Shown here piece after piece: positions 5,698 to 56,995 of a stretch of 64,000 bases of DNA. Each line of letters opens with the position of its first letter. Position 1 is the stretch's first letter. The notes under the pieces are model-generated. The model did no database searches. It was not told the DNA's origin and saw only the letters and a program-made list of their open reading frames with translations. Made by a program: the position numbers and the translations under genes. This DNA comes from Minisyncoccota bacterium (GTDB lineage Bacteria; Patescibacteriota; Minisyncoccia; 2-02-FULL-40-12; GWA2-44-9): assembly GCA_030583765.1 (NCBI GenBank), contig CP129474.1:521348-585347 (forward strand), written 5' to 3'.

Positions 5698-5726
5698 TTG
5701 ACTTTTACATAAATAAACTGGATAAT
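5698..5726 (+). promoter_or_regulatory. Cassette 1 promoter: TTGACT-17bp-GATAAT
   Basis: -35 is TTGACT at 5698-5703. The spacer is 17 nt. -10 is GATAAT at 5721-5726. The RBS GAGGAGGTGGGC ends 1 nt before ATG 5750. Confidence 0.6.
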
Positions 5727-5749
5727 GTATGCACCACGAGGAGGTGGGC

Positions 5750-6151
5750 ATGGAGAGCTTTTTCACTGACATGGGCGAGGGCGATCGCGTGGTCGCGCAC
5801 GTCGGGATGCACTCGATCGACATGAGCCCCGAAGGGCGACCGGATGTGGCCTTGTCGTTGCCGATCAACGACATCGGGTACGGGGAGAGCGCTGATGTGT
5901 TGGAGGAGTATATCCTCGCCATCAACGCTGCGCTGAAGCTGGCTCATCGTCGGCTTCGTCTCGAAAGGGTTTTCGACCACCATGGCGAAGAGGTCGTGTT
6001 CGAGGGCGAGGTTTCTTTCGAGGGGCTGGTCGAAGAGGAGGGTCGTCGGGAAGAGGAGAACCCGGAAGATCCTCTGTACGCGAAGAGATTCGTTTTCATC
6101 TTCGAGGCGCTCCCCAACCCGACGTTGCGGGATCGCCACATGATGCCCTAG
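5750..6151 (+). CDS. Hypothetical acidic protein (cassette 1); GC-rich foreign-looking ORF inserted between secY and adk
   Basis: 133 aa. The start is set by the strong RBS: MESFFTDMGEGDRV... The codons are G/C3-saturated, unlike the flanking ribosomal genes. No motif was recognised. Confidence 0.6.
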   Translation: MESFFTDMGEGDRVVAHVGMHSIDMSPEGRPDVALSLPINDIGYGESADVLEEYILAINAALKLAHRRLRLERVFDHHGEEVVFEGEVSFEGLVEEEGRREEENPEDPLYAKRFVFIFEALPNPTLRDRHMMP

Positions 6152-6164
6152 TTGTGGGCTCGCC

Positions 6165-6215
6165 TACGCGCGTCGTTTCCTTCGGGAACCGGCGCGCTGT
6201 TCTTTTTTTATTTGG
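6165..6215 (+). terminator. Intrinsic terminator of cassette 1
   Basis: GC stem flanking a TTCC-TTCG-GGAA hairpin, followed by TGTTCTTTTTTTATTT. Confidence 0.55.
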
Positions 6216-6231
6216 CGTGTACAATACGACT

Positions 6232-6921
6232 ATGGAAAAACAGGCAATCATTCTCATTGGGCCACCGGGCGCAGGGAAGGGAACACAAGCTGAATTACTC
6301 GCCGATGATTTCGGTTTTTTTCACTTTGACACCTCGCAAATCATCGAAGAACGTTTTCGTACTGCGCCCGCCGATGATCCCGTGATCGCGCAAGCGAAGG
6401 CGAACTATGATGCGGGAAAACTCGTAGAGCCAGCACTCGTGGCAAGTTGGGTGATTGATAAAATCCGGGCGCTCGGCATTGGCGGCACCAGCATTGTATT
6501 TAGTGGTTCGTTCCGTACAAACACCGAAGCAGCTGAAGAGCTCCCCGTATTGCAAGAAGTGTATGGCGCCAAAAATGTGCACATTGTGAACATTGAAGTG
6601 GGAGAAGAAGAGTCGGTGAAGCGCAACTCGGGTCGTCGGGTGTGTAAGGTAAACCGTCACCCCATTCCCAACTTCCCGGAATTTGCGAATATCACTGCGT
6701 GCCCCAAAGATGGTAGTGAGATCGTGACGCGGAGTCTCGACGTTCCCGAAACTATTCGCGTGCGCTACGCAACATATCAAGAGCAAACGAAGCCCGTTGT
6801 CGCCTACTTTGAGGGGCAAGGGTATACGGTCATCCGCATCGATGGCGAACAACCCATTCGCAAGGTGCATGAAGATATCATGGAGCGTATTCACGAATTT
6901 TCACATCCGCAAAATATATGA
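6232..6921 (+). CDS. adk: Adenylate kinase
   Basis: MEKQAIILIGPPGAGKGTQ P-loop at the N-terminus. ATG 6232 is in frame within the 6154 ORF. Confidence 0.9.
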   Translation: MEKQAIILIGPPGAGKGTQAELLADDFGFFHFDTSQIIEERFRTAPADDPVIAQAKANYDAGKLVEPALVASWVIDKIRALGIGGTSIVFSGSFRTNTEAAEELPVLQEVYGAKNVHIVNIEVGEEESVKRNSGRRVCKVNRHPIPNFPEFANITACPKDGSEIVTRSLDVPETIRVRYATYQEQTKPVVAYFEGQGYTVIRIDGEQPIRKVHEDIMERIHEFSHPQNI

Positions 6922-7673
6922 TCCTCAAAGAGCAAGATATTCAATTCATGCGTGAAGGTGGAAAAATACTCGCAACAATATTGCGAGAGCTTGCCGCGTC
7001 AGTGAAGCCCGGCATGCCCACGCAGGCATTAGAAGACATCGCCCGTGAGCGTATCGCAGCGCATGGGGTTACTTCATCTTTTTTGGGATATAACGGGTAT
7101 CCCGCAACGCTCTGTGTGAGTGTGAATGAGGAAGCGGTGCATGCAGTGCCGGGAGGATACATCATCCAAGAGGGAGATCTGGTAAAGCTTGATTTCGGCG
7201 TGGTGCACCATGGCCTGCACACTGATAGCGCCGTGACCGTGATTGCCGGACTCACCGACGCACGAAAAAAAGAGTGGCAAGACCGCATCACGCTTTCGCG
7301 CGTAACGCGTGAGGCGCTCTATGCGGGCATTGCGCAAGCGCGTGCCGGAAACACGGTGGGGCACATCGGTGCTGCAATCCAAGCGCATGCAGAAAAAAAT
7401 GGATTCACGGTTTTAAAAGATCTGGGTGGACACGGGATCGGTATGCGGTTGCATGAGGATCCTTTTGTGCCAAACCACGGCTCTGCGGGGGAGGGGGACA
7501 CACTCGTAGCCGGCATGGCGCTTGCGATCGAACCTATTTTAACGACGGGCACACACAAGACAAAAGACGGAACCGATGGCTTTGCATACGTCACCAAAAA
7601 CGGAGCGCTCTCTGCACATTTTGAACATACTATTATCGTCACGGAGGGGGCTCCTATCATCGTAACTGAGTAG
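6918..7673 (+). CDS. map: Methionine aminopeptidase type I
   Basis: 251 aa with a typical MetAP pita-bread fold sequence. It follows adk. Confidence 0.9.
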   Translation: MILKEQDIQFMREGGKILATILRELAASVKPGMPTQALEDIARERIAAHGVTSSFLGYNGYPATLCVSVNEEAVHAVPGGYIIQEGDLVKLDFGVVHHGLHTDSAVTVIAGLTDARKKEWQDRITLSRVTREALYAGIAQARAGNTVGHIGAAIQAHAEKNGFTVLKDLGGHGIGMRLHEDPFVPNHGSAGEGDTLVAGMALAIEPILTTGTHKTKDGTDGFAYVTKNGALSAHFEHTIIVTEGAPIIVTE

Positions 7674-7685
7674 TCCTAAGGGGTA

Positions 7686-7713
7686 TTGACTTTATATACA
7701 AAGGTAGTATAAT
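7686..7713 (+). promoter_or_regulatory. Cassette 2 promoter: TTGACT-16bp-TATAAT
   Basis: -35 at 7686-7691 and -10 at 7708-7713. The RBS CAGGAGGTGGCAC is followed by ATG 7735. Confidence 0.6.
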
Positions 7714-7734
7714 ATACGCTCAGGAGGTGGCACT

Positions 7735-8328
7735 ATGGCCACGATGATGCAGGTCGGTCTGGCGGAGTTCGGCGCGAACGTCCGCCCCATCGCGGAGCGC
7801 ACCTTTCGGTGCCTCGTGCACAAGCGCGAGGTGACGTCTCGGGACGGTTTCGTCCTGAGCATCGGCAACATCCAGAAGGAGCTCGGACTGCCGGCGAAGC
7901 AGCTGCCGGCGATTCACCAGCTCAGCGGGTTCGTCGCCTGCTACGAGTGTCTCCCGAGTGTGAGGTCCTTCTACGGGGTGTCGTTCATGCCCCGCCTCGG
8001 GGACCAGCTCGCGCTGCTCGATCGGCACTTCAAGCTGGCGGCCCAGCAGGTGAGGGCGCGGCCGATCGCTCCGGCGACGGTCGTGCAGGGCACGACGACG
8101 GGGCGCACGGGGACGGCCATGCCCACGCTCCCTGCCGGCTACTTCGAGCGCCGGGGCCAGGCCCACAAGGGCCGGAAGTCCCGGGCCCAGAGGCGCGCGG
8201 AGGCGATGGCCAAGCGCGCGCGGCCGGCGGCCACCGCGGCCGTCGACAAGAAGGCCGCGAAGAAGGCCGCCAAGCAGGCGGCCAAGGCCAAGAACCAGAA
8301 GGGCAACGGTGGCAAGAAGCGCCACTAG
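7735..8328 (+). CDS. Hypothetical protein with histone H1/AlgP-like KAAK-repeat basic tail (cassette 2), likely nucleic-acid binding
   Basis: 197 aa. The N-terminal domain is about 110 aa. The tail reads ...KRARPAATAAVDKKAAKKAAKQAAKAKNQKGNGGKKRH. The sequence is very GC-rich. Overlapping alternative-frame ORFs are GC artefacts. Confidence 0.6.
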   Translation: MATMMQVGLAEFGANVRPIAERTFRCLVHKREVTSRDGFVLSIGNIQKELGLPAKQLPAIHQLSGFVACYECLPSVRSFYGVSFMPRLGDQLALLDRHFKLAAQQVRARPIAPATVVQGTTTGRTGTAMPTLPAGYFERRGQAHKGRKSRAQRRAEAMAKRARPAATAAVDKKAAKKAAKQAAKAKNQKGNGGKKRH

Positions 8329-8338
8329 CGGCCCACTT

Positions 8339-8388
8339 GCGGGGGTGTGTGCATACGGTGCACATACCCCCGCTTTTTCTTTGTTTTT
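8339..8388 (+). terminator. Intrinsic terminator of cassette 2
   Basis: GCGGGGGTGTGTGCA...TGCACATACCCCCGC hairpin followed by TTTTTCTTTGTTTTT. Confidence 0.6.
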
Positions 8389-8406
8389 CCATATAGGCAT
8401 ACACTA

Positions 8407-8436: not shown

Positions 8437-8722
8437 CCCTAGTACCCAAAGATGATTACCTACCAGACAAGCGAAACCCTCAGCGGCTGACAGACCGTGT
8501 TCGCACGTCTGAAAAAGCCGCCTCAAGGCGGTTTCTGTGTCTCTAGGAGCATCACGCGGGTCGCTTCGCCCTAAGGGGCGAGACGAACCTCGCTCCATGA
8601 TCCTTTGGTATCATGAGCGGGCAGTACGTTGACAACGTGGAACGGGAGCTGAACGAAAGTTCAGCTTTGTATTGTTCGCTTTATAAGAGACCTAGGACCT
8701 CGAGTCCTAGGTGGTACTTTGT

Positions 8723-11815
<3,093 letters not shown>

Positions 11816-11873
11816 GGTCTCTTATAAAACAAACAACACAAAACCGTTCCACGTAGCGTAAAAACGCTAGAAA

Positions 11874-11985
11874 CTTGGCAGCTATACTGTAGGTGTCCCA
11901 CCTGATCCCATTCCGAACTCAGAAGTGAAATCCTGCAAGGCCCATGATAGTCGGACTCTTCCGGCGAAAGTAGGTAGCTGCCAGA
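11874..11985 (+). rRNA. rrf: 5S ribosomal RNA
   Basis: CTTGGCAGC...CCCACCTGATCCCATTCCGAACTCAGAAGTGAAA...GCTGCCAG; canonical 5S helices. Confidence 0.8.
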
Positions 11986-12024
11986 TTTCTGGCGTTTTTA
12001 TGTTGGTGAGGTATACTTGCAGAT

Positions 12025-26954: not shown

Positions 26955-26983
26955 TTGACTATATCGTATTTATTTTGTACTAT
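26955..26983 (+). promoter_or_regulatory. Cassette 3 promoter: TTGACT-17bp-TACTAT
   Basis: -35 at 26955-60 and -10 at 26978-83. RBS AGGAGGTGGCA is at 26993-27003 and the GTG start is at 27004. The native rpsF promoter is divergent just upstream. Confidence 0.55.
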
Positions 26984-27003
26984 ATGCGTCCAAGGAGGTG
27001 GCA

Positions 27004-27315
27004 GTGAATCAGAAAAAGCGAGCGACCGCGTCGCTAGCGGAGCTCGTTGCCGAAGTATCAGGGTGGCGGTTTGTGGTGGGGATGGCGGCCGTCATCGGGA
27101 GCCTCTTCATCTTCGTCTGTATGTTCCGAGCGGGCGTTGCGTGGGAACAAGGGCGTCTCGTTGCCGCAGTTGCTCTTGCGGCAGCTTCACTGGTTGCCGT
27201 CATCCTGTTTCTCGTGATCCTCACCATCGCTACGCGCAACTTGCGGGGCGACGTGCGGGAGTTTGCGAGACGCATGGGTGCTGGCATGGGCGATGACGCT
27301 GGGCTTAAGATCTAG
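27004..27315 (+). CDS. Small 2-TM membrane protein (cassette 3, gene a)
   Basis: 103 aa with two hydrophobic helices (VVGMAAVIGSLFIFV..., LVAAVALAAASLVAVILFLVIL). It is GC-rich and starts at a GTG placed by the RBS. Confidence 0.55.
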   Translation: MNQKKRATASLAELVAEVSGWRFVVGMAAVIGSLFIFVCMFRAGVAWEQGRLVAAVALAAASLVAVILFLVILTIATRNLRGDVREFARRMGAGMGDDAGLKI

Positions 27316-27330
27316 TGGGGGGGGTGAATC

Positions 27331-27936
27331 GTGAAGGTTCTCGTCGTTGCCGGGTACGGGGTGACGCCCGTACGAAACTACGCCATGGAGACAGAGCGCT
27401 ATCTGCTCCGTGCCGCAGAGTTGCTCAGGGAGGCATACGAGGGCGGCGATCCGTTCTCCAATCTCATCCTGTGCGGCGGCATGACCCAGCAGAAGACATC
27501 GCCACATGTCACAGAGGCGTACGCGATGCACGAACGTCTTCGCACGTTGACCATGTGGACTGATGGGAAGCTCGTACCCTCCTTCTGGGACGCTGTGCTG
27601 GTCTCGCACGAAGAGCGTTCATTCACTTCGCTGGAGAACGTACGAAACGCGAGTGAGCGCATTTATCAGCTGTGGGAGCAATTCGATGAGGAGCTCCACA
27701 TCACCGTGCTGTGCGAAGGCATGCGCCTCCTGAAGTGGCAGATCTTGTGTCGCCACTTCATGCCGAAGACGACCACGCCCATCCAGTACGAGATCGTCAA
27801 CTGGGAGCTGATGTCACCCCACAAGGAGTTGATGGCGACCATCTGGGACGCGTGTTCGGTCTCGATTCCCATTATCGGGCCAGCGATGGCGTGGTGGTGG
27901 GGATGGCGTCGCCGTCGGCGCGCCAAGCACATCTAG
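27331..27936 (+). CDS. DUF218 (YdcF/SanA/ElyC)-like protein with W/R-rich C-terminal tail (cassette 3, gene b)
   Basis: 201 aa. VLVVAGYG...R...LILCGGMTQQKTSPHVTEAYAMHERL resembles the DUF218 GG/SEA core. The tail reads AMAWWWGWRRRRRAKHI. Start is GTG. Confidence 0.55.
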   Translation: MKVLVVAGYGVTPVRNYAMETERYLLRAAELLREAYEGGDPFSNLILCGGMTQQKTSPHVTEAYAMHERLRTLTMWTDGKLVPSFWDAVLVSHEERSFTSLENVRNASERIYQLWEQFDEELHITVLCEGMRLLKWQILCRHFMPKTTTPIQYEIVNWELMSPHKELMATIWDACSVSIPIIGPAMAWWWGWRRRRRAKHI

Positions 27937-27945
27937 CCCCTACCG

Positions 27946-27985
27946 CCGGTCGCACACGTTGTGCGGTCGGCGGGCTTTTATTTTC
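27946..27985 (+). terminator. Intrinsic terminator of cassette 3
   Basis: CCGCCGGTCGCACACGTTGTGCGGTCGGCGG hairpin followed by GCTTTTATTTT. The ychF stop codon (complement of 27978-80) lies inside the T tract. Confidence 0.6.
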
Positions 27986-29106: not shown

Positions 29107-29135
29107 TTGACTTTATCGCTTTAAACTGGTATAAT
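29107..29135 (+). promoter_or_regulatory. Cassette 4 promoter: TTGACT-17bp-TGGTATAAT (extended -10) plus about 100-nt structured leader
   Basis: -35 at 29107-12 and -10 at 29130-35. The leader has hairpins CCATCCTCTAGGAGGGGATGG and TCGGCTAACAGCCGA before RBS GGAGAGAAGCA and ATG 29242. Confidence 0.55.
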
Positions 29136-29241
29136 TATAGAGTACAGTGTAGTACCTTTACATGCAGAACTGCCGCATTTCGCGGCCCATCCTCTAGGAG
29201 GGGATGGAAGAATCTCGGCTAACAGCCGAAGGAGAGAAGCA

Positions 29242-29835
29242 ATGAAGTATGACGAGATGACGTGGGGCACGATGGAGGCCGTGGTCAACAAGCTTGGCGG
29301 CATGGATGGCGTTCAGCGCTTCCTGCGCGGCGCGCTCAAGGTCGTCGAGGCGGAGGCCAATGCCGCCTTCTCGACGTTCCAGAAGATCACGCTCAGCGTG
29401 TACGACAACGTCGCGACGCTTCGCAAGGCGATCGCGGACAGCGGCAACAACATCAGCGACTACGGGGAAGACCTGCTCGCCAAGATGTCGCTGGTGAAGG
29501 AGCCCGTCGAGCTCGAGCTGGTGTGCGTGTCGGTCAAGGATCTGGGCCTGAAGTCCGGAGCCACGATCAAGCAGATCTACGATCGCGCTCGCAAGCTTGG
29601 CTTGGACCTCTGCCCGGCCCAGGTCGGACCCGAGCTCCGCCTGGCCTACCAGGATCAGCCCATCGGCGAGTGGCTGCTGGTGGCGATGGAGCAGATCACG
29701 GATCGCAACGGTCACCCGAGCGTGTTCATCGTCGGGTGTGACGTCCACGGCGTCCGCTGGTTGGACGGCGATTACGCCTACCCGAGCAACACCTGGAGCG
29801 GCCTCAGCCGTTGGGTGTTCGTCCGTCGCGCGTAA
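29242..29835 (+). CDS. Hypothetical protein (cassette 4)
   Basis: 197 aa beginning MKYDEMTWGTMEAVVNKLGG... It is GC-rich with G/C3 codons. No motif was recognised. Confidence 0.55.
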   Translation: MKYDEMTWGTMEAVVNKLGGMDGVQRFLRGALKVVEAEANAAFSTFQKITLSVYDNVATLRKAIADSGNNISDYGEDLLAKMSLVKEPVELELVCVSVKDLGLKSGATIKQIYDRARKLGLDLCPAQVGPELRLAYQDQPIGEWLLVAMEQITDRNGHPSVFIVGCDVHGVRWLDGDYAYPSNTWSGLSRWVFVRRA

Positions 29836-29886
29836 GCCCTTAGCGCTTGGCAGCTTAGTTCTCTGAACTTGGAAGCTGAGCCCTGC

Positions 29887-29920
29887 GCCCGCACAGAAAT
29901 GTGCGGGCTCTTTATTTTTA
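29887..29920 (+). terminator. Intrinsic terminator of cassette 4
   Basis: GCCCGCAC-AGAAAT-GTGCGGGC followed by TCTTTATTTTTA. The terminal TTA is the stop codon (complement) of the convergent nucleotidyltransferase gene. Confidence 0.6.
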
Positions 29921-30620: not shown

Positions 30621-30654
30621 TATAAAAAGTAAGGGGGCTTGTACAAAGCCCCCT
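30621..30654 (-). terminator. Intrinsic terminator of cassette 5 (minus strand)
   Basis: On the minus strand, GGGGGCTTTGTACAAGCCCCC followed by TTACTTTTTATA lies downstream of the NUDIX stop. Confidence 0.55.
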
Positions 30655-30662
30655 CTCGAGCG

Positions 30663-31181
30663 CTAGAGCTCGTACGGCGGTGCGGCAGGCGGCTCGGCGG
30701 GGAAAACGCTCTGCGGGTACGGCCTTTGCGGCCGGATGTAGGGCTCCCAGATGAGCGTTCTCTGCGCGCGATAGACGTGTTCCCACACGCCTTCGAGTTC
30801 CGGTGCCGTGAACCAGCGCACATCGCTGATCTCGTCCGTGGGAAGCTGGGCATGCACCGGAGATGTTTCGGAGAACTGTTGACGGGGGAACTCCCACATG
30901 AGGACGATCCCCGGCGATTTGGCGAGCGTGAAGGCGTGTGGGCACCACATGGAGGGGGCGGTCAACCAGTATCCAGTCTCCTCCCTCAATTCGCGTGCCA
31001 GTGCATCCCAGAGCCGCTCTCCGATCATGGGCGCTCCGCCAGGGAGTGACCACTGTCGAGAAGGGTATCCCGGCACCTCGTAGTTGTGCTGAACGAGGAG
31101 GATTTTCGGCTCCTTCCCTGGTGTGCGGTTGACGATGTGGGCGAAGACGCCCACCTGCGTAATGTCTCGTTTATCTCTCAC
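30663..31181 (-). CDS. NUDIX hydrolase (cassette 5, minus strand)
   Basis: 172 aa with Nudix box GGAPMIGERLWDALARELREETG. It is GC-rich with G/C3 codons. The GTG start follows RBS AAGGAGGT. Confidence 0.8.
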   Translation of the reverse strand: MRDKRDITQVGVFAHIVNRTPGKEPKILLVQHNYEVPGYPSRQWSLPGGAPMIGERLWDALARELREETGYWLTAPSMWCPHAFTLAKSPGIVLMWEFPRQQFSETSPVHAQLPTDEISDVRWFTAPELEGVWEHVYRAQRTLIWEPYIRPQRPYPQSVFPAEPPAAPPYEL

Positions 31182-31204
31182 TCAAACCTCCTTGTGAGTT
31201 TCTG

Positions 31205-31233
31205 ATAATACAATTACTTGCGCTAACTGTCAA
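31205..31233 (-). promoter_or_regulatory. Cassette 5 promoter (minus strand): TTGACA-17bp-TATTAT
   Basis: The reverse complement of 31228-33 is TTGACA, overlapping the trpS stop. The reverse complement of 31205-10 is TATTAT. RBS AAGGAGGT is the reverse complement of 31186-93. Confidence 0.55.
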
Positions 31234-32298: not shown

Positions 32299-32327
32299 TT
32301 GACCGTTGTGATATTTATTGGTATAAC
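32299..32327 (+). promoter_or_regulatory. Cassette 6 promoter: TTGACC-17bp-TATAAC
   Basis: -35 at 32299-304 and -10 at 32322-27. RBS AAGGAGG is at 32336-42 and the ATG at 32349. Confidence 0.55.
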
Positions 32328-32348
32328 TATGCACGAAGGAGGCGCACC

Positions 32349-32786
32349 ATGAGATCTTGTTTGACATTGGCACACGAGCCGTACGAGCCCTTGCGCATCG
32401 CGCGCGACGAGCTCGTCGTCGTTTCGGAAACGGATCCGGGGAGCATCCCCGCGTTCGTGGATCGGTTTCGGGACGTTTCTGCTCCGATTCCGATCGAGTG
32501 CGTGGACCACCTTCGCAAGCTGGTGACAGCGATCATCCAGAAGATGGAGTTCGCGTCTGCGAACGGGTGGCCGTCACGTAGGCCGATGTACTTCCATGTC
32601 TGTCGCCTGAACGACCTGTCAGCGAAGGAGTGCGAGCTCTGGGAGGACGCCGCGCAGCTCATCTACAAGGAGTTGCACGCTTGCGGCTGGACGCAGGCCA
32701 TCGTGGACGAGGTGGAGTGGCAGAACGTGGAGGACGAGGGGACGGAGCGTTACGAGCGCTCGCTCGTCATCAACCTGTTCATGTAG
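32349..32786 (+). CDS. Hypothetical protein (cassette 6)
   Basis: 146 aa beginning MRSCLTLAHEPYEPLRIARDELVVV... It is GC-rich. The RBS-placed ATG is in frame inside the 31989 ORF. No motif was recognised. Confidence 0.55.
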   Translation: MRSCLTLAHEPYEPLRIARDELVVVSETDPGSIPAFVDRFRDVSAPIPIECVDHLRKLVTAIIQKMEFASANGWPSRRPMYFHVCRLNDLSAKECELWEDAAQLIYKELHACGWTQAIVDEVEWQNVEDEGTERYERSLVINLFM

Positions 32787-32791
32787 CAAAC

Positions 32792-32830
32792 GCCCGAGGG
32801 GGTATCCCTCGGGCGTGCTTTCTTTTTATA
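32792..32830 (+). terminator. Intrinsic terminator of cassette 6
   Basis: CGCCCGAGGGGGTATCCCTCGGGCG followed by TGCTTTCTTTTTATA. The RNase J stop codon (complement of 32826-28) is in the T tract. Confidence 0.6.
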
Positions 32831-39962: not shown

Positions 39963-40029
39963 TTCGGCGGCTGGCGGCATCGTGCGGGGATATCCGCGCA
40001 CCGTACCGCCCGCCGTCGTTTCTGCGGCA

Positions 40030-42644: not shown

Positions 42645-43562
42645 ATGACGCAGACACTCTACGAGCATCGTGATGCAAATATTCGCACGACATGGGCGCT
42701 CATGACCGGCTTTCTTGTGTTTGTTATTGGAATCGGCTTTTTGTTTAGCCAGGCGTTCCAAGCACCCGAAATTCTCTACATCGCCGTGCTCTTTAGCATG
42801 GTGAGCAACATCGTTGCGTTCTGGTTTTCAGATCGTATCGCACTGAGCATGTCAGGGGCTCGCCCAGTTTCGCGCGAAGAAAATGTGCGCTTGCACCGTA
42901 TGGTGGAGAACATTGCCATCACGGCTGGGTTGCCGATGCCGCGGCTCTACATTATCCCTGGAGCGCAGATCAACGCTTTTGCTACGGGGCGAAACCCACA
43001 AAAGGCTGCAGTCGCGGTGACGCGAGGTGCGTTGGAAAAGCTTGACGATAACGAACTTGAAGGGGTCCTTGCGCACGAACTCTCTCACATTGGGAATCGA
43101 GACATGCTTGTGGGGACGGTTGCCGTGGTGCTCGCGGGAGTCATTTCGATCCTCGCGGACATTGGCCTTCGCGCAGGACTCCACGGCCGTTCTTCTGATA
43201 GCAATAGCAAACAAGGTGGTGCGGCGCTCCTCATCATTGCGCTCATTGCTGCCATTCTTGCGCCGATTGCCGCAACACTCATCCGCTTAGCTGTTTCACG
43301 CAAGCGAGAGTATCTCGCTGATGCATCGGGCGCGCTTCTTACGCGCTACCCGGAAGGACTTGCAAGCGCATTAGAAAAAATTGGCGCTGACAGTGCGCCA
43401 ATGCCGAACGCCCATAACGCAACGGCACATCTTTTTCTCGCAAACCCATTTAAAGGCAAGGATGCGCTTTCGTGGTTTACAAAACTCTTTATGACACATC
43501 CTCCTGTCGCTGACCGCGTTCGCGCACTGAGAGGAATGGAGCAGGGCCGCGATGCTCCTTGA
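42645..43562 (+). CDS. htpX: Zinc metalloprotease HtpX (M48)
   Basis: HELSHIGNRD zinc motif and 4 TM helices. Confidence 0.85.
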   Translation: MTQTLYEHRDANIRTTWALMTGFLVFVIGIGFLFSQAFQAPEILYIAVLFSMVSNIVAFWFSDRIALSMSGARPVSREENVRLHRMVENIAITAGLPMPRLYIIPGAQINAFATGRNPQKAAVAVTRGALEKLDDNELEGVLAHELSHIGNRDMLVGTVAVVLAGVISILADIGLRAGLHGRSSDSNSKQGGAALLIIALIAAILAPIAATLIRLAVSRKREYLADASGALLTRYPEGLASALEKIGADSAPMPNAHNATAHLFLANPFKGKDALSWFTKLFMTHPPVADRVRALRGMEQGRDAP

Positions 43563-43587
43563 AGATTGGCATTTTCACTGGTAGAAT
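43559..43587 (+). promoter_or_regulatory. Cassette 7 promoter: TTGAAG-17bp-TAGAAT
   Basis: The -35 overlaps the htpX stop (43560-62). RBS AGGAGG is at 43608-13 and ATG at 43620. Confidence 0.5.
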
Positions 43588-43619
43588 CCGCGTAGCTCTT
43601 GTGGGGCAGGAGGCTTGCC

Positions 43620-43880
43620 ATGATGGGACGCAGATCGCTCCTGCGGATTGCATATCATCTCGTGCATCCGCATGTGAGTGAAGAGGAAATGCCCCACGAA
43701 GAGTGGGACATGGCAGTAGCCATCGCGCAAGATCGGCGTGATCGTCGGTGGCCGCTCAACGAACGCACTGACGCGCTCTGGGCTCCGGTGCGGGATGCGA
43801 TTCTCAACGTTCCGCGTCCCGACCACGTTTCCGAAATGACGTACCGCCTCTTCCATGAAGTGGTTCGTGACATCGAGTAG
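43620..43880 (+). CDS. Hypothetical small protein (cassette 7)
   Basis: 86 aa beginning MMGRRSLLRIAYHLVHPHVSEEEMPHEEWDM... It is GC-rich. No motif was recognised. Confidence 0.45.
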   Translation: MMGRRSLLRIAYHLVHPHVSEEEMPHEEWDMAVAIAQDRRDRRWPLNERTDALWAPVRDAILNVPRPDHVSEMTYRLFHEVVRDIE

Positions 43881-43924
43881 TTCTCCTGCGCGCTGACAGA
43901 CTTATTCTGCGAGCGCGCTTCCTT

Positions 43925-44008: not shown

Positions 44009-44180
44009 CATATGTACATCAGTATGCCGTTTGGCGTACTGATGTACATGGGTATATGTATGGTGCGGGATTCGAATGCCGGAGCGATGTGTTGCCAGCT
44101 GGCAACACCGCGAGGCGGTGCCTAGCCCGAGTCGAGCGACGGCGAGACGAAAGGCGAAGGAGAATCCTGTACCCTCCGCA
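43992..44180 (+). repeat. 19-bp direct repeat (GAATCCTGTACCCTCCGCA) = tRNA-Ser 3' end, copies at 43992-44010 and 44162-44180, flanking 151 bp of palindromic DNA
   Basis: Exact duplication seen in sequence. The intervening segment contains TGTACATCAGTA-N12-TACTGATGTACA and a TTGCCAGCTGGCAA palindrome. Confidence 0.8.
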
Positions 44181-49244: not shown

Positions 49245-49248
49245 AATC

Positions 49249-49283
49249 AAAACACCGCATCTTCTGCGGTGTTTTGATTTAAT
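49249..49283 (+). terminator. Intrinsic terminator after tRNA-Asn
   Basis: AAAACACCGCA-TCTTC-TGCGGTGTTTT followed by GATTTAAT. Confidence 0.5.
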
Positions 49284-49341
49284 CCCCTGGTGGACGTTAG
49301 AACTTAAAAATGATTAAATTGAATAAATAGTAAGTAGTCTC

Positions 49342-50082
49342 ATGGCGTACAATATGAGTTTAGAGCAAATACCAAATCAAGCACCTAAGCAGGAAATAAA
49401 AGTTCAACCTAAAATAGAAGTTGAACCAAATTTTGATGGTTTCGTTCCAGATGAATTTAAAAACGACCCCCTAAAATATTTTGAAGAGAAGGGCACTAAC
49501 ATAAAGCCTGGAGAAACAAAATATGATGAAACTGGTCGGGTCCGCGAAGATCCAACCGCTGTAAAAGATTTACCAGTTTGGAAGAATAAAGAAGGAGTTG
49601 AGCTACATACAGTTGGAAAAAGAGTGAACAAAGAGAAGGGCAAGATTGGTGAGATTAGGGATCCGTTTTATGAATATAAAGTTATGGAAATTATTCAAGA
49701 ATTAGGTTTGCCATGTCCTAGGCCAGTTGCAAGGGTAGAACAAGGAGGCAATAACCTTATCGTGATGGAACGAGTTCATGGTATCCGTTGGCCAGATAAA
49801 GATAGTCTACATCTTAATGAGAAAGGATATTCTGCTGAAGATATTCAGGGCTTGATCAGCCAGGCAGAGGTCATGGTAAGGGAATTGCATAGAAAATTCG
49901 AAGACGCTGGTATTTCAAGAGATTGGAAATTAAAAGATATGCTTTTTGATATTGACATAGAAAATAAGAAAATTAATTCCATTGTTCCTACAGATTGGGA
50001 AAGAACCACAATAAACCAAGAAAAATTGGCACAGGCCAGAGCATTGAAGCGACAAACTAAATTAGATACCGAAGGACCCTAA
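49342..50082 (+). CDS. Hypothetical protein in AT-rich islet, possible atypical (RIO/Kdo-like) kinase fold
   Basis: 246 aa, K/E-rich. LIVMERVHG...RDWKLKDMLFDID loosely resembles the hinge and catalytic-loop regions of small atypical kinases. This is weak. Confidence 0.35.
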   Translation: MAYNMSLEQIPNQAPKQEIKVQPKIEVEPNFDGFVPDEFKNDPLKYFEEKGTNIKPGETKYDETGRVREDPTAVKDLPVWKNKEGVELHTVGKRVNKEKGKIGEIRDPFYEYKVMEIIQELGLPCPRPVARVEQGGNNLIVMERVHGIRWPDKDSLHLNEKGYSAEDIQGLISQAEVMVRELHRKFEDAGISRDWKLKDMLFDIDIENKKINSIVPTDWERTTINQEKLAQARALKRQTKLDTEGP

Positions 50083-50186
50083 ATCCGGGACATGGATATA
50101 TCCATTATGCTTTTGCAAAATAGTTCTAACGTTGTTCACGGTTCGGAGCAAGGAATAGAAAAATAAGCTATTATAAACGATAGCCT

Positions 50187-50531
50187 ATGCTGTCCCCCAG
50201 AATCCAATTCGTTGTTCGATTTATTATCGCTGGGTTTTTGTTTCTTGCTATAACAACTTCACTGCTAGGGTCTACCGGTGTGCGAGGGTTTCCAAAGTAT
50301 CCAGACTCTCTGTTAAGAACTGGCGTCGATTCACCATTTGCCTGGAAGCGCACGGTAGCTACGGTGATTCTGCCAATCAAAATTGTTCTTATAGGCCCGC
50401 TCTCTCTGGAGTCTGTCGATCTTTTAAAAGATGATCCGCCACCTCCCTTTATTGCGATATATCTTATCTGCTACTGGACGATTCTTGCCTCAGGCATTTA
50501 TGCTGTGTCTCATAGCATAAAACAGAGCTAG
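50187..50531 (+). CDS. Hypothetical membrane protein in AT-rich islet
   Basis: 114 aa with 3 hydrophobic segments. Confidence 0.35.
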   Translation: MLSPRIQFVVRFIIAGFLFLAITTSLLGSTGVRGFPKYPDSLLRTGVDSPFAWKRTVATVILPIKIVLIGPLSLESVDLLKDDPPPPFIAIYLICYWTILASGIYAVSHSIKQS

Positions 50532-54150: not shown

Positions 54151-54152
54151 CC

Positions 54153-55160: not shown

Positions 55161-55162
55161 CC

Positions 55163-55564: not shown

Positions 55565-55610
55565 CGCGCTGCGTTTCTATGGCGATTGCAAAATGTGGTA
55601 AGGTGGTGGC

Positions 55611-56114
55611 ATGCGTACCGTTGTGGTGCACGACAAAATGCAGGATGGCTATACCTATGAGTGTACAGCGCCCATGGGTAAGAATTTTGACCCAGAGTTT
55701 ACTCCAGATCTTACTCCGAAAGAAATGCTCGCGCTGGGAGTTTTTGGAGGGAAATACATGACCGATTGTCGTGATGAGTTCCCGGCAGATTGGTTTACGC
55801 ATGCCAAGCTCTCTCCACCGGGGCATAACGCCGCACTCAATTTTTTTGGCGCGCGTGCGAGCCAATCGCTCTCAGTGTGGGTGAAGAAGGGCTGGATCTA
55901 TCCTGAAGATCCGCGCGGATGGTTTCAGTGGTACTGTCGCTACTATATGGGCAGGCGCATCCCCGAAGAAGATGCGCGACAAATTAAGCGCTGGAAGGCA
56001 ATTCGGCGTCACGTTGCACAAGTACGCAAGAACTGCAAGGCGGGAGATGTCACGTGTCGTCCTAAGCAACGCCAGGCACTGCTACATTGGGCATACGATA
56101 GTCGCACGTTATAA
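55611..56114 (+). CDS. Hypothetical protein
   Basis: 167 aa, W/Y/C-rich. No motif was recognised. Confidence 0.4.
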   Translation: MRTVVVHDKMQDGYTYECTAPMGKNFDPEFTPDLTPKEMLALGVFGGKYMTDCRDEFPADWFTHAKLSPPGHNAALNFFGARASQSLSVWVKKGWIYPEDPRGWFQWYCRYYMGRRIPEEDARQIKRWKAIRRHVAQVRKNCKAGDVTCRPKQRQALLHWAYDSRTL

Positions 56115-56123
56115 TAATGCAGC

Positions 56124-56726
56124 ATGCGGAAAAGACTTATCATCGCTGGTGGCATATGTATTGCCGTGGCCGCGCTTATCTGGGCCGCGCTTTTTGTACT
56201 GCGTTTTCCGGAAACGCACCCTGACGCCACATTACGCATTGCAGAGCGCATAGATGCTTTTTTATTTCGCATCACATTTCCTCTGAAGCTTGCGCGTTTA
56301 AGCATGGAAGAGCCTGATGCGGTGTTAGTAATGCCCGTGTACGGCGTTTCAGTGCGGCAGGTGAGCGACACATGGGGCGCTCCTCGGGGCGAAGACCGCG
56401 GGCATGAGGGACAAGATATCTTTGCTCCTCGTGGAACGCCTGTTTTTTCTGCAACGAATGGATACATTGTTCGCATACAAGAGGACAGAGAGTTGGGCGG
56501 CAATACGGTGTGGATTGCTGGTGCAGGCGGGATTCGTTATTACTATGCGCACCTTGATCGGTTCGCAGAGGGCATCGCCGTGGGGCAGTGGGTGACTACC
56601 GATTCTGTGATTGGATTTGTGGGGAATACAGGCAACGCGGTGACTACGCCCCCACACCTTCATTTGGGGATGTATCTGCGCCGTGAAGCGCTGAACCCCT
56701 TTTCTTTACTTGTAAACCGCCCGTAA
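56124..56726 (+). CDS. M23 family metallopeptidase (LytM-like)
   Basis: HEGQDIFAP...GNTVWIAG...YYYAHL...GNTGNAVTTPPHLHLGMY (the HxxxD and HxH zinc ligands). Confidence 0.8.
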   Translation: MRKRLIIAGGICIAVAALIWAALFVLRFPETHPDATLRIAERIDAFLFRITFPLKLARLSMEEPDAVLVMPVYGVSVRQVSDTWGAPRGEDRGHEGQDIFAPRGTPVFSATNGYIVRIQEDRELGGNTVWIAGAGGIRYYYAHLDRFAEGIAVGQWVTTDSVIGFVGNTGNAVTTPPHLHLGMYLRREALNPFSLLVNRP

Positions 56727-56733
56727 CGGGTGC

Positions 56734-56762
56734 TTGACTTTACTATTATTACGTGCTATAAT
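56734..56762 (+). promoter_or_regulatory. Cassette 8 promoter: TTGACT-17bp-TATAAT (perfect consensus)
   Basis: -35 at 56734-39 and -10 at 56757-62. RBS AGGAGGTGGCA is at 56770-80 and ATG at 56782. Confidence 0.6.
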
Positions 56763-56781
56763 TAAGGACAGGAGGTGGCAT

Positions 56782-56925
56782 ATGGTCCACAAGCCGACCC
56801 GCCGTACCCCCGCGTGCATCACGCGGGGCACGCACCGGGAGGTCCCCGCGGCCCCCTGGCTCCGCCCCAGCGAGAAGCTGGGCGCCTGGAGCCCCGAACA
56901 CGGGTTGCCCAAGGAGTACCGCTAG
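56782..56925 (+). CDS. Hypothetical small basic protein (cassette 8)
   Basis: 47 aa, MVHKPTRRTPACITRGTHREVPAAPWLRPSEKLGAWSPEHGLPKEYR. It is extremely GC-rich. Confidence 0.4.
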   Translation: MVHKPTRRTPACITRGTHREVPAAPWLRPSEKLGAWSPEHGLPKEYR

Positions 56926-56948
56926 CGCGGTACCCGAGGACAACCCCA

Positions 56949-56995
56949 GCCCCCGCAAGCGATTGCGGGGGCGCTCTTTTTTCATTGCTTTTTTA
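56949..56995 (+). terminator. Intrinsic terminator of cassette 8
   Basis: GCCCCCGCAA-GCGAT-TGCGGGGGC followed by GCTCTTTTTTCATTGCTTTTTT. Confidence 0.6.

What the first reader, a model, noticed from the sequence alone, without database searches (positions are those of the whole stretch)
5698..56995. Eight uniformly built, GC-rich expression cassettes inserted into intergenic gaps of an SD-poor host backbone
The cassettes sit at 5698-6215, 7686-8388, 26955-27985, 29107-29920, 30621-31233 (minus strand), 32299-32830, 43559-43900 and 56734-56995.

Each one has the same architecture:
- a near-consensus sigma70 promoter (TTGACT/TTGACA/TTGAAG, 16-17 bp spacer, TATAAT-like -10);
- a strong Shine-Dalgarno, which is the identical core AGGAGGTGG(C/G) in 4 of 8 cassettes and AGGAGG/AAGGAG in the rest;
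- one or two ORFs with conspicuously G/C-saturated third codon positions;
- a canonical hairpin plus T-tract terminator.

The native genes here (rpoC, ftsK, groEL, rpoD, copA and others) almost never carry an SD and have visibly lower GC. Each cassette fills what would otherwise be a short intergenic spacer between conserved neighbours: secY|adk, map|rRNA, rpsF|ychF, ychF|NTase, NTase|trpS, trpS|rnj, htpX|tRNA-Ser and M23 peptidase|TPR protein. I see no attC or CRISPR-like repeats, and no integrase or transposase.

The shared regulatory grammar with unrelated coding content argues for a common origin. That origin could be designed or standardised parts, or an unusual family of promoter-bearing gene cassettes. 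Seven of the nine proteins carry no motif I can recognise, so this dispersed set is the strongest candidate for an undescribed system in the window.
Basis: partly seen in the sequence, partly recalled or inferred. Interest (0 to 1): 0.92.

Follow-up and report, generated by a model that had tools for sequence, protein, structure and literature searches.

The report
Fast-evolving, strongly expressed accessory gene units
A tiny groundwater-type bacterium (Paceibacteria, candidate phyla radiation) carries eight natural, self-contained mini-genes for fast-evolving proteins found only in its own lineage; they use expression signals and G/C-rich codons that its core genes do not use, so they are a distinct gene class, not engineered parts or a new mobile-cassette system.

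Summary
Eight units have a near-consensus sigma-70 promoter, a strong Shine-Dalgarno (SD) site and G/C-rich third codon positions (GC3 0.63-0.96, against a core median of 0.52). Seven also end in a hairpin plus T-tract terminator. A hexamer SD precedes 8 of 8 units and 0 of 46 core genes.

They are natural. The same junctions occur in independent metagenome assemblies, and the record is an NCBI Paceibacterota genome assembled from a metagenome (615 kb contig).

Most are not recent insertions. C1, C2, C3, C5 and C6 sit at the same positions, with the same promoters and the same high GC3, in two sister species from Hainich groundwater. Only C7 is absent there. More distant relatives have the flanking core genes directly adjacent.

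The units evolve quickly (dN/dS 0.17-0.69, against 0.02-0.09 for core genes). They duplicate as whole units. At one slot, divergent alleles replace each other in near-identical strains. At another, the same promoter and terminator frame a diversity-generating retroelement (DGR) target in the sisters and C4 here, a C-type-lectin-fold protein of the DGR-target kind.

The GC excess is confined to third codon positions. In C2 it is actively maintained. No recombinase or shared recombination site was found.

Verdict: a moron-like, hypervariable accessory compartment with its own expression signals. It is a new variant of a known kind and moderately interesting.

The parts
5698..6209 (+). C1 unit. 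Promoter TTGACT-17-GATAAT (5698-5726); SD AGGAGGTGGG (5739-5748); ORF 5750-6151 (133 aa, GC3 0.77; NCBI calls it from 5729); hairpin 6168-6197 plus T-tract 6200-6209.
   Evidence: The family is present as three tandem promoter-to-terminator units in the same secY|adk slot of sister species L090 and L091. dN/dS is 0.27-0.69.
7686..8383 (+). C2 unit. Promoter TTGACT-16-TATAAT; SD AGGAGGTGGC (7722-7731); ORF 7735-8328 (197 aa, GC3 0.94, Lys/Ala-rich basic tail); 16-pair hairpin 8339-8373 plus T-tract.
   Evidence: Orthologues with the same promoter and GC3 0.91-0.92 sit in the same map|rRNA slot in L090, L091 and L092. It is an orphan in an exhaustive HMMER search of 1.84 billion proteins. Of its synonymous changes, 26 of 37 are G<->C.
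26955..27983 (+). C3 unit (bicistronic). Promoter TTGACT-17-TACTAT; SD AGGAGGTGGC (26993); C3a 27004-27315 (103 aa, predicted membrane protein; GC3 0.68); C3b 27331-27936 (201 aa, weak DUF218/ElyC-SanA-YdcF match; GC3 0.79); hairpin 27943-27973 plus T-tract.
   Evidence: Orthologues are in L010 and L011: C3b is 81% and 64% identical at the amino-acid level, C3a 53% in L010 and barely recognisable in L011. L011 has an extra cassette behind it, flanked by a duplicated terminator.
29107..29918 (+). C4 unit. Promoter TTGACT-17-TATAAT; ~100-nt leader; SD AAGGAG (29229); ORF 29242-29835 (197 aa, GC3 0.89); hairpin 29887-29908 plus T-tract.
30621..31233 (-). C5 unit. Promoter TTGACA-17-TATTAT (31233-31205); SD AGGAGG (31192); ORF 31181-30663 (172 aa NUDIX hydrolase, GC3 0.75); hairpin 30655-30631 plus T-tract.
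   Evidence: (PF00293, E 4e-14). Diverged orthologues are in L093 and L094 at the same trpS|NTase slot. S>W exceeds W>S at synonymous sites, 14 to 6, which indicates partial amelioration.
32299..32826 (+). C6 unit. Promoter TTGACC-17-TATAAC; SD AGGAGG (32337); ORF 32349-32786 (145 aa, GC3 0.83); hairpin 32790-32816 plus T-tract.
   Evidence: In strains 99.8% identical in the flanks (L001, L002), it is replaced by a homologue 39% identical at the amino-acid level. The two allele classes are each shared with a different sister species.
43559..43917 (+). C7 unit (atypical). Promoter TTGAAG-17-TAGAAT; SD AGGAGG (43608); ORF 43620-43880 (86 aa, GC3 0.63); imperfect hairpin without T-tract; runs into tRNA-Ser(GGA) at 43925-44009.
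   Evidence: It is absent from both sister species, where the same promoter sits 105-127 nt before tRNA-Ser.
56734..56982 (+). C8 unit. Promoter TTGACT-17-TATAAT; SD AGGAGGTGGC (56770); ORF 56782-56925 (47 aa, GC3 0.96); hairpin 56949-56972 plus T-tract.
   Evidence: The same antisense ORF call between the M23 peptidase and the TPR gene appears in same-species contigs from five of six runs; the sixth contig ends before the slot. No sister-species sequence was available for this slot.

Best explanation
**What they are (shown).** The eight units are natural, autonomous transcription units. They encode accessory proteins restricted to a genus-level clade of Paceibacteria (candidate phyla radiation, CPR). 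They are not one co-functioning system, and they are not engineered.

**Anatomy (shown).** Each unit has, in order:
- a sigma-70 promoter with a -35 box, the same promoter class this organism uses for rRNA, rpoB and groES;
- a short leader, about 20 nt in six units, that is little more than an 8-11-nt Shine-Dalgarno (SD) site;
- one or two ORFs rich in G/C at third codon positions;
- an intrinsic terminator that insulates the unit from the flanking core operons (seven of eight units).

Core genes are built differently. They have no SD, and some have a -10 box directly in front of the ATG.

**History (shown by comparison).**
- The units lie between core genes that are directly adjacent in distant relatives.
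- Most were already in place in the common ancestor of this species and its two Hainich sister species.
- Since then their proteins have evolved 5-10 times faster than core proteins.
- They have duplicated in tandem as whole promoter-to-terminator units and have been gained and lost.
- At the C6 slot, and in effect at the C4 slot, they have been replaced by divergent alleles.
- In the sister species the C4 slot holds a target of a diversity-generating retroelement (DGR).

**How this happens (inferred).** I infer that allele replacement works by homologous recombination through the conserved flanks.

**Why they look uniform (inferred).** The shared layout reflects convergence on the organism's consensus signals for leadered, SD-dependent, high-level expression of stand-alone genes. 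It does not reflect common descent of the parts.

**Why they are GC-rich (inferred).** The GC3 excess is a property of this gene class that selection on synonymous sites maintains. It was possibly inherited from an old foreign origin. It is not a fresh import signature.

**Function (speculative).** They probably encode variable envelope, ligand-binding or conflict-related proteins.
For: **Natural origin.**
- Identical junctions occur in Logan contigs from SRR26372204/05/09/10/11, SRR24881069, DRR859381 and DRR779145. The proteins are NCBI WKZ27055-WKZ27087, on a 615,149-bp Paceibacterota contig.

**Two gene classes.**
- Promoter, SD, GC3 and terminator statistics separate the units from core genes.

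**Synteny in sister species.**
- C2 keeps the same promoter and GC3 of 0.91-0.92.
- The C1 family is present as three tandem full units.
- C3a/C3b are present, as is C5.
- C6 occurs as two allele classes shared across species.

**Old insertion.**
- In L013, L014 and L012, ychF sits next to the rpsF-position ORF and rnj next to trpS, 4-55 nt apart.

**Evolutionary rates.**
- Cassette dN/dS is 0.17-0.69, against 0.02-0.09 for core genes.

**GC3 pattern.**
- The excess is only at third positions: GC1 0.64 vs 0.61, GC2 0.44 vs 0.42, GC3 0.81 vs 0.53.
- It ends sharply, with no GC3 gradient in the flanking core genes.
- In C2, only 8 of 94 G/C third positions went to A/T, about 0.09 per site, against about 0.45 per site in core genes. 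There were 26 G<->C changes.

**Slot behaviour.**
- The C4 promoter, leader start and terminator are conserved around unrelated ORFs.

**Recombination is active.**
- C6 allele swap.
- A 94-nt imported tract in ychF.
- A 300-aa gene 95% identical to its L010 copy, against about 80% for the backbone.

**Clade-wide pattern.**
- Genes with a hexamer SD have raised GC3 in the close clade (+0.155, p = 1e-5) and in other CPR loci (+0.071, p = 0.006). They do not in non-CPR loci.
Against: - No transcript or protein data exist, so promoter strength, transcription start sites and SD use are inferred from sequence alone.
- The 16S 3' end is not in the window, so a functional anti-SD is assumed rather than seen.
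- What maintains GC3 is not identified. Selection on synonymous sites is inferred mainly from C2. C3b and C5 instead look as if they are slowly decaying toward host composition.
- The majority-rule polarisation used three taxa at saturated divergence.
- Sister-species data are missing for C8.
- Only 64 kb of a 615 kb genome was examined.
- The function of seven of the nine proteins is unknown.
Confidence: 0.6

Rival explanations
1. Recent horizontal imports. The units would be foreign genes (morons in the strict sense) newly acquired from GC-rich, SD-using donors such as the bacterial host or a phage. They would still carry donor codon usage and a donor ribosome-binding site.
For: - Composition is atypical and an SD is present in a genome that otherwise lacks SDs.
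- C7 is absent from both sister species.
- C3b and C5 show an excess of G/C-to-A/T synonymous changes, as expected for amelioration.
- In another CPR locus (L026), the SD-led, GC-richer genes begin like metabolic enzymes of the kind CPR bacteria are thought to acquire laterally. This was read from their N-terminal sequences, with no family search.
Against: - Five of eight units are syntenic, with diverged orthologues, in sister species whose core genes differ by dS of about 1 or more.
- C2, the most GC-rich unit, has no homologue outside its own cluster among 1.84 billion representative proteins.
- C1, C2, C4 and C6 have no relatives in IMG/VR. The C6 family was found only in Hainich relatives.
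- GC1 and GC2 are not raised, as they would be in genes from a genome of about 70% GC.
- Promoters are AT-rich and match the host's own strong promoters.
Confidence: 0.18
2. GC-biased gene conversion at recombination hot spots. The units would be native hypervariable loci whose frequent recombination drives G/C fixation. The SD and strong promoter would be unrelated features.
For: - Recombination is active at and near these loci: the C6 allele swap, the ychF tract and the 24717-25619 transfer.
- C2 shows rapid synonymous turnover that nevertheless stays G/C.
Against: - There is no GC3 rise in the 150 nt of flanking core genes nearest the cassettes: 0.53 near against 0.57 far.
- Promoters and leaders inside the same units stay AT-rich.
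- GC1 and GC2 are barely shifted, even though the proteins evolve fast.
- To my knowledge, reported gBGC effects in bacteria are far smaller than a shift from 0.53 to 0.94.
Confidence: 0.1
3. A dedicated cassette-exchange system. Fixed promoter/terminator "expression slots" would have ORFs swapped in and out by a site-specific or hairpin-targeted recombination mechanism, analogous to integrons.
For: - The C4 slot keeps its promoter, leader start and terminator around unrelated ORFs.
- An extra cassette in L011 is flanked by a direct repeat of about 45 nt of the neighbouring terminator.
- C1 duplicates as a whole promoter-to-terminator unit.
Against: - No integrase, transposase or other recombinase lies in or near any slot, in the window or in the sister loci.
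- No recombination site is shared: nothing longer than 12 nt is common to the units, and the terminators differ from slot to slot.
- All three observations are explained by ordinary homologous or homology-facilitated recombination between repeated terminators or conserved flanks. RecA is encoded in the window.
Confidence: 0.05
4. An artefact. The units would be synthetic or engineered inserts, or chimeric assembly of reads from a GC-rich organism.
For: The near-textbook promoter, RBS and terminator layout, and the sharp compositional boundaries.
Against: - Identical cassette-core junctions occur in independent assemblies from at least eight sequencing runs.
- Diverged orthologues are present in separately assembled Hainich genomes.
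- dN/dS is below 1 and codon periodicity is clear.
Confidence: 0.01

Closest known systems
Phage "morons" (Hendrix and colleagues; criteria as summarised in PMC2920897)
   Same: - An extra gene sits between two conserved neighbours.
- It has its own promoter and terminator.
- Its GC content differs from the surroundings.
- Different units occupy the same hot spot in different genomes.
- It is expressed independently of its neighbours.
   Different: - The neighbours here are core chromosomal genes (secY, adk, map, rpsF, ychF, trpS, rnj) of a CPR bacterium, not prophage genes.
- Most units are old and are inherited vertically with the chromosome.
- The families are not found in phages or in other lineages.
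- The GC excess is confined to third codon positions, and in C2 it is maintained.
Integron gene cassettes
   Same: Small, mostly orphan ORFs. Variable content at fixed places. Gain, loss and duplication of whole units.
   Different: No attC sites and no IntI integrase. Every unit has its own promoter. The units are dispersed over 51 kb rather than arrayed behind attI and Pc.
DGR variable-protein loci of CPR bacteria (PMC8144416: DGR clade 2 is restricted to Patescibacteria; PMC11661182: targets carry C-type-lectin domains)
   Same: - The C4 slot of both sister species holds a complete DGR: a 127-nt VR/TR pair with 15/17 and 16/18 mismatches at TR adenines, plus bAvd and RT.
- C4 itself has a C-type-lectin-like fold.
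- C4 is homologous to the variable-region-bearing end of a DGR target elsewhere.
   Different: In this window C4 has no TR copy, no bAvd and no RT. The other seven units have no DGR features at all.
Genomes with mixed translation-initiation modes and "atypical" genes (GeneMarkS-2 framework, PMC6028130, known to me from its abstract)
   Same: One genome holds genes with different start-site signals, plus a minority of compositionally atypical genes.
   Different: - The split here is nearly absolute and coincides with four other features: a -35 promoter, a terminator, GC3 and evolutionary rate.
- Internal operon genes also lack an SD, so this is not the usual pattern of a leaderless first gene with SD-led internal genes.

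Membership tests
Phage moron | Own transcriptional signals (promoter and/or terminator) | tested here: met
   Sequence-level only; there are no transcript data.
Phage moron | GC content different from the surrounding genes | tested here: met
   GC3 is 0.63-0.96 against a core median of 0.52.
Phage moron | Inserted between adjacent genes of a phage or prophage | tested here: not met
   The flanks are core genes that are syntenic across Paceibacteria. No phage genes are present. The only PHROG matches are generic NUDIX families plus one family of unknown function, all for C5.
Phage moron | [quoted passage not shown] | tested here: not met
   C2 is an orphan. C1, C2, C4 and C6 are absent from IMG/VR. 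C6 occurs only in the sister clade.
Integron cassette | attC recombination site at the 3' end of each cassette | tested here: not met
   No shared sequence longer than 12 nt. The 3' hairpins are slot-specific intrinsic terminators with T-tracts.
Integron cassette | IntI tyrosine recombinase with attI and Pc | tested here: not met
   None is visible in the ORF list of the window, and none has a Pfam hit on record among the called genes of the same-species and sister loci. The rest of the genome was not examined.
Integron cassette | Cassettes generally promoterless | tested here: not met
   Each unit has its own promoter.
DGR target (C4 only) | C-type-lectin-type variable domain at the C-terminus | tested here: met
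DGR target (C4 only) | Cognate template repeat with adenine-specific mismatches | tested here: not met
   There is no second copy of the C4 C-terminus in the window. The rest of the genome was not examined.
DGR target (C4 only) | Reverse transcriptase and accessory protein nearby | tested here: not met
   Absent from the window. Present at the same slot in the sister species.
Recently acquired genomic island | Absent from close relatives, with clean junctions | tested here: not met
   Met only for C7. C1, C2, C3, C5 and C6 are present in the sisters.
Recently acquired genomic island | Identifiable donor homologues | tested here: not met
   NUDIX and DUF218 are too generic to name a donor.
Engineered construct | Not present in independent natural samples | tested here: not met
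   Present in at least eight runs, and in diverged form in the sister species.

The most novel reading that the evidence does not exclude
Paceibacteria may keep a second genomic compartment with its own expression regime.

- Hypervariable accessory proteins would be expressed from fixed promoter/terminator "slots" through short SD-only leaders. Core genes would be translated without an SD.
- Extreme G/C at synonymous sites would be selected as part of that regime, for example for mRNA stability or for initiation and elongation behaviour specific to SD-led messages.
- ORFs in a slot would turn over by allele replacement, whole-unit duplication or DGR mutagenesis. Old alleles would be kept by balancing selection, as at the C6 slot.
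- On this reading, the signature SD plus -35 promoter plus terminator plus high GC3 would be a sequence-only way to pick out the host-interaction or conflict genes of uncultured ultra-small bacteria.
Probability: 0.2. Interest if true: 0.75.

Novelty: new variant of a known kind. Interest (0 to 1): 0.5.

Why it matters
CPR bacteria are mostly uncultured, and many of their genes have no assigned function. If the split seen here holds genome-wide, it would matter in four ways.

1. **A sequence-only flag.** It would mark the fast-evolving accessory genes most likely to be involved in host attachment, defence or competition.
2. **Two initiation modes in one small genome.** It would be a natural case of two translation-initiation modes in a 0.6 Mb genome, with codon composition tied to the mode.
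3. **Annotation.** Gene finders trained on the SD-less majority will mis-start or miss these genes. NCBI starts C1 21 nt early, and C8 is not in the protein collection.
4. **Genetic tools.** It would supply candidate promoter, RBS and terminator parts for future work on these organisms.

It also shows that a textbook-looking expression cassette in a metagenome-assembled genome is not evidence of engineering.

Tried and rejected
**Origin and artefact.**
- Synthetic origin or assembly chimera: rejected on the basis of independent assemblies and diverged orthologues.

**Searches for a phage or mobile-element origin.**
- Four IMG/VR scans with C1, C2, C4 and C6 found nothing.
- PHROGs gave only generic NUDIX matches for C5, plus one family of unknown function.

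**Function searches.**
- Known defence systems: PADLOC gave only a weak hit for the C5 NUDIX protein to a candidate-system model, PDC-S07.
- Pfam and NCBIfam: only NUDIX for C5 and a sub-threshold DUF218 match for C3b.
- Profiles of the C1, C2 and C6 families against PDB sequences: nothing below E = 0.2.

**Homologue searches.**
- One word-index search with six orphans concatenated (C1, C2 without its tail, C4, C6, C7, C8) found relatives only for C4. It did not return the self-proteins, so its sensitivity is uncertain.

**Structure prediction.**
- Single-sequence AF2 of C4 was useless, with pLDDT 41. A 4-row alignment rescued it.
- The C1-family alignment was too divergent for the metagenome scan.

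**Other tests.**
- Shared repeats or attC-like sites: none.
- gBGC spill-over into the flanking genes: none.
- The 16S anti-SD motif GGATCACCTCCTT was sought in the 100 loci fetched up to that point and not found. No 16S gene is held.
- Literature searches for SD or leaderless usage in Patescibacteria returned nothing specific.

Full report
**1. What is in the sequence**

The window is a stretch of a candidate-phyla-radiation (CPR) chromosome. It holds a ribosomal-protein operon, secY, adk and map. It also holds a 23S-5S rRNA pair without a 16S gene, followed by rpoB/C, ftsK, recA, ychF, trpS, rnj, groES/EL, rpoD and a copper operon.

Exact look-ups identify seven of the nine cassette proteins as NCBI proteins WKZ27055-WKZ27087. 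These belong to a "Candidatus Paceibacterota bacterium" genome assembled from a metagenome, on a 615,149-bp contig.

All eight units are at the coordinates given. Quantitatively:

- **Promoters.** Only nine sites on both strands match TTGACA-16/18-TATAAT in at least 10 of 12 positions. Five are cassettes. Three others are the rRNA, rpoB and groES promoters.
- **Shine-Dalgarno (SD) sites.** A hexamer SD 5-7 nt before a real start codon occurs at all eight units and at none of 46 core genes (p = 1e-9).
- **Third-position GC (GC3).** The nine ORFs score 0.63-0.96. Core genes range 0.29-0.62, with median 0.52.
- **Terminators.** The strongest hairpin plus T-tract in each 20 kb stretch is a cassette terminator.
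- **Completeness.** A blind scan for SD plus start codon plus high GC3 recovers exactly these nine ORFs.

C7 is the exception. Its promoter scores 9/12, it has no T-tract, and its GC3 is 0.63.

Core genes are built differently. None has a hexamer SD, including genes inside operons. At least 7 of 46 have a good -10 box ending 4-14 nt before the ATG, which suggests leaderless or near-leaderless messages (inference from sequence).

**2. They are natural**

- The same cassette-core junctions are found at 99.3-100% identity in Logan assemblies of SRR26372204, -05, -09, -10 and -11, SRR24881069, DRR859381 and DRR779145.
- Two sister species from Hainich groundwater (H51 and H41 bins) share about 80% nucleotide identity in core genes. 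They carry diverged versions of most units.
- This rules out engineering and assembly chimeras.

**3. Slot-by-slot comparison**

*C2 (map|rRNA).* Orthologues are present in both sisters. They have the same promoter (TTGACTTTAtATACAaAAGTAGTATAAT), GC3 of 0.91-0.92 and 62-65% amino-acid identity. The basic C-terminal half is strongly conserved. One sister adds a further SD-led, GC-rich Amidase_3 gene in this slot.

*C1 (secY|adk).* The sisters have three tandem units here where the window has one. In L090 all three are C1 paralogues. Each has its own promoter, the SD context CCACGAGGAGGTGG and the same terminator, so the whole unit is what duplicates. In L091 two units are C1 paralogues and the third is unrelated.

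*C3 (rpsF|ychF).* C3b is 81% and 64% identical to its sister orthologues. C3a is 53% identical in one sister and barely recognisable in the other. L011 has one more cassette behind C3b, flanked by a direct repeat of about 45 nt of the terminator.

*C4 (ychF|NTase).* This slot is the most informative.
- The sisters share the window's promoter, the first ~35 nt of the leader and the terminator hairpin.
- The ORF between them is unrelated to C4. It is the target of a complete diversity-generating retroelement (DGR).
- That DGR has a 127-nt VR/TR pair with 15/17 and 16/18 mismatches at template adenines, a bAvd protein (PF22296) and a reverse transcriptase.
- The window has no TR, bAvd or RT.
- C4 residues 64-196 are homologous (E 1e-34) to the C-terminal domain of PcfJ-like proteins. 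One of these, P0001, is itself a DGR target with its variable region in that domain.
- So this slot expresses a variable ligand-binding protein in all three species. Only the sisters have the mutagenesis machinery at the slot.

*C5 (NUDIX).* Diverged orthologues are in both sisters.

*C6 (trpS|rnj).* Two allele classes exist.
- Strains of the window's own species that are 99.8-100% identical in the flanks carry either class A (this window) or class B (L001, L002). The two classes are 39% identical at the amino-acid level.
- Class A is also the H51 allele (58% identical). Class B is also the H41 allele (72% identical).
- This is either a polymorphism older than the species or old exchange between them.

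*C7 (htpX|tRNA-Ser).* Absent from both sisters. There the same TTGAAG-17-TA(G/T)AAT promoter sits 105-127 nt in front of tRNA-Ser. C7 is therefore a lineage-specific insertion between a tRNA promoter and its tRNA.

*C8.* The slot looks the same in same-species contigs from five of six runs; the sixth contig ends before the slot. No sister data were available.

*More distant relatives.* In syntenic Paceibacteria (YchF about 55% identical), ychF abuts the rpsF-position ORF and rnj abuts trpS, with spacers of 4-55 nt. The units are therefore insertions on the deeper time scale.

**4. Evolutionary behaviour**

- Core genes between the species have dS of about 0.8-2 and dN/dS of 0.02-0.09. Cassette genes have dN 5-10 times higher and dN/dS of 0.17-0.69. 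They are coding but weakly constrained or diversifying.
- Pooled over the nine ORFs, the GC excess is almost entirely at third positions: GC1 0.64 against 0.61, GC2 0.44 against 0.42, GC3 0.81 against 0.53.
- It stops at the ORF boundaries. Promoters stay AT-rich, and flanking core genes show no GC3 rise toward the cassettes (0.53 near, 0.57 far).
- At codons that are synonymous across three species, core genes show balanced S>W and W>S changes (1188 and 1106) and few G<->C changes (174).
- C2 shows 8 S>W, 3 W>S and 26 G<->C changes in 100 codons. Its synonymous sites turn over but stay G or C.
- C3b (21 to 13) and C5 (14 to 6) instead show an S>W excess, as expected for slow decay toward host composition.
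- The three-taxon majority rule at this divergence is crude, so these counts are indicative only.

Recombination with divergent relatives is clearly active. Besides the C6 swap, one strain has 16 substitutions at 3-nt spacing within 94 nt of ychF. A 300-aa orphan gene (24717-25619) is 95% identical to its L010 copy, against about 80% for its neighbours, and is missing from L011.

**5. Is the pattern wider?**

Genes with a hexamer SD were compared with their own locus median GC3.

| Set of loci | GC3 above locus median | p |
|---|---|---|
| Close clade | +0.155 | 1e-5 |
| 16 other CPR loci | +0.071 | 0.006 |
| 11 non-CPR loci | +0.015 | not significant |

In L013, five SD-led ORFs with raised GC3 lie between trpS and ychF. 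In L012, a C4 homologue has an SD and GC3 of 0.59 against a locus median of 0.40. In L026, the SD-led GC-richer genes begin like metabolic enzymes. The automatic gene calls are rough, and the effect comes from a handful of loci. This is a lead, not a result.

**6. Explanation**

*Shown.*
- The units are natural, autonomous, insulated expression units for clade-restricted proteins. C2 has no homologue among 1.84 billion representative proteins. C6 occurs only in the sister clade.
- They are long-term residents of fixed intergenic slots.
- They turn over by point substitution, whole-unit duplication, gain and loss, and allele replacement. In the sisters, DGR mutagenesis adds to this.
- No recombinase is present, and nothing longer than 12 nt is shared beyond TATTGACTTTAT (C2 and C4) and CAGGAGGTGGCA (C2 and C8).

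*Inferred.*
- The uniform layout is convergence on this organism's consensus signals for a leadered, SD-dependent, strongly expressed stand-alone gene.
- The replacement mechanism is homologous recombination through conserved flanks or repeated terminators. RecA is encoded in the window. Use of DNA uptake by CPR bacteria is my own background knowledge and was not tested here.
- The high GC3 is maintained, at least in C2, by selection on synonymous sites linked to this expression mode, possibly on top of an old foreign origin.

*Rivals.* Recent import fits C7 and partly fits C3b and C5, but not C2. Biased gene conversion is not excluded, although the sharp boundaries argue against it. A dedicated exchange system has no machinery to support it.

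*Function.* Unknown for seven of the nine proteins. The following are consistent with envelope, ligand-binding or conflict roles, but this is speculation:
- the lectin-fold protein C4, sitting where the sisters have a DGR;
- the membrane protein C3a with the DUF218 protein C3b;
- the tandem C1 paralogues;
- the two old C6 alleles.

**7. Comparison with known kinds**

The closest concept is the phage "moron": an extra gene between conserved neighbours, with its own promoter and terminator and deviant GC, at insertion hot spots (criteria as listed in PMC2920897).

- The architecture criteria are met.
- The phage context and the cross-genome mobility criteria are not met.
- Every integron criterion fails.
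- DGR membership applies only to the C4 slot, and there the window lacks TR, Avd and RT. DGRs are known to be common in CPR (PMC8144416), and their targets are typically C-type-lectin proteins (PMC11661182).

I therefore file the finding as a new variant of a known kind. These are moron-like accessory units in a CPR core chromosome. What is unusual is the near-absolute coupling of SD use, promoter type, terminators, GC3 and evolutionary rate.

**8. Verdict**

This is not an engineered construct, and it is not a single new system. Interest is moderate (0.5).

The feature that would repay follow-up is the two-regime organisation with GC3 held high at synonymous sites, together with the slot behaviour at C4 and C6.

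Noticed in passing
L010:211-1426 (-), L011:77-1532, L093:18855-19850 (-): The sister species carry a complete DGR exactly where the window has C4. It consists of a 227-aa target with a C-terminal variable region, a 127-nt template repeat (15/17 and 16/18 mismatches at template adenines), a bAvd protein and a reverse transcriptase.
   Followed up: yes
window 32299-32826; L001:13040-13530; L093:16096-16461; L094:16120-16548: The C6 slot holds two allele classes that are 30-40% identical at the amino-acid level. Both segregate within one species whose flanks are 99.8-100% identical. Each class is shared with a different sister species.
   Followed up: yes
L011:2780-3600 (-): One sister has an extra 213-aa membrane-protein cassette between C3b and ychF. 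It is flanked by a direct repeat of about 45 nt of the C3 terminator. That looks like insertion or duplication by recombination at the terminator.
   Followed up: partly
L090:7700-9265; L091:7797-9248: The secY|adk slot holds three tandem promoter-SD-ORF-terminator units in both sisters, against one in the window. All three are C1 paralogues in L090; two are in L091. In L090 the SD context and the terminator are conserved between the copies.
   Followed up: yes
window 24717-25619 (-): A 300-aa orphan gene with host-like GC is 95% identical in nucleotides to its L010 copy (dS 0.17), although neighbouring genes are about 80% identical. It is absent from L011. This suggests a recent transfer between the lineages.
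   Followed up: partly
window 28701-28794 (ychF): Strain L005 (DRR859381) differs from the window by 16 substitutions, most of them spaced 3 nt apart, within 94 nt, and nowhere else in 2.4 kb. This is a short imported recombination tract.
   Followed up: partly
window 43559-44009; L093:5090-5330; L094:5076-5335: The tRNA after C7 is tRNA-Ser(GGA) here but tRNA-Ser(TGA) in both sisters. Where C7 sits, the sisters have a tRNA-like fragment (GGAGGGTTGGCCGAGTGGG...) that ARAGORN does not call. The SD region of C7 aligns with the 5' end of that fragment.
   Followed up: partly
window 8718-11986: A 23S rRNA gene of 3092 nt matches a 2925-nt model, so it carries about 170 nt of extra sequence. It is followed by 5S rRNA, with no 16S gene upstream. 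Its promoter at 8407 lies directly after the C2 terminator.
   Followed up: no
window 49000-50500: An AT-rich block (GC 0.38-0.44) holds orphan ORFs (49342-50082, GC3 0.29; 50187-50531). From about 49320 onward it did not align to sister locus L093 (the other sister locus, L094, ends at 49247). This is compositional deviation in the opposite direction to the cassettes.
   Followed up: partly
L091:11631-12392; L092:2761-3522: An SD-led Amidase_3 gene with GC3 of 0.75 lies after the C2 orthologue in the H41 lineage (L091, L092). It is not present in the window.
   Followed up: no
L013:6586-8973; L012:13465-14118 (-); L026:213-9750: More distant Paceibacteria loci also have a minority of SD-led genes with GC3 0.1-0.2 above their backbone. 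One of them is a C4 homologue in a Yanofskybacteria genome.
   Followed up: partly
window 39900-39990: The groES promoter (TTGACA-17-TAGAAT) is followed by an imperfect inverted repeat, TTAGCACTC-N9-AACTGCTAA. To my eye it resembles a CIRCE heat-shock operator. This was not tested.
   Followed up: no
window 5729-5750 and 56782-56925: Two annotation points. NCBI starts C1 at 5729 (140 aa), but the SD supports 5750, and other assemblies aa. The 47-aa C8 ORF is not in the protein collection; gene callers instead call a 78-aa antisense ORF there.
   Followed up: partly
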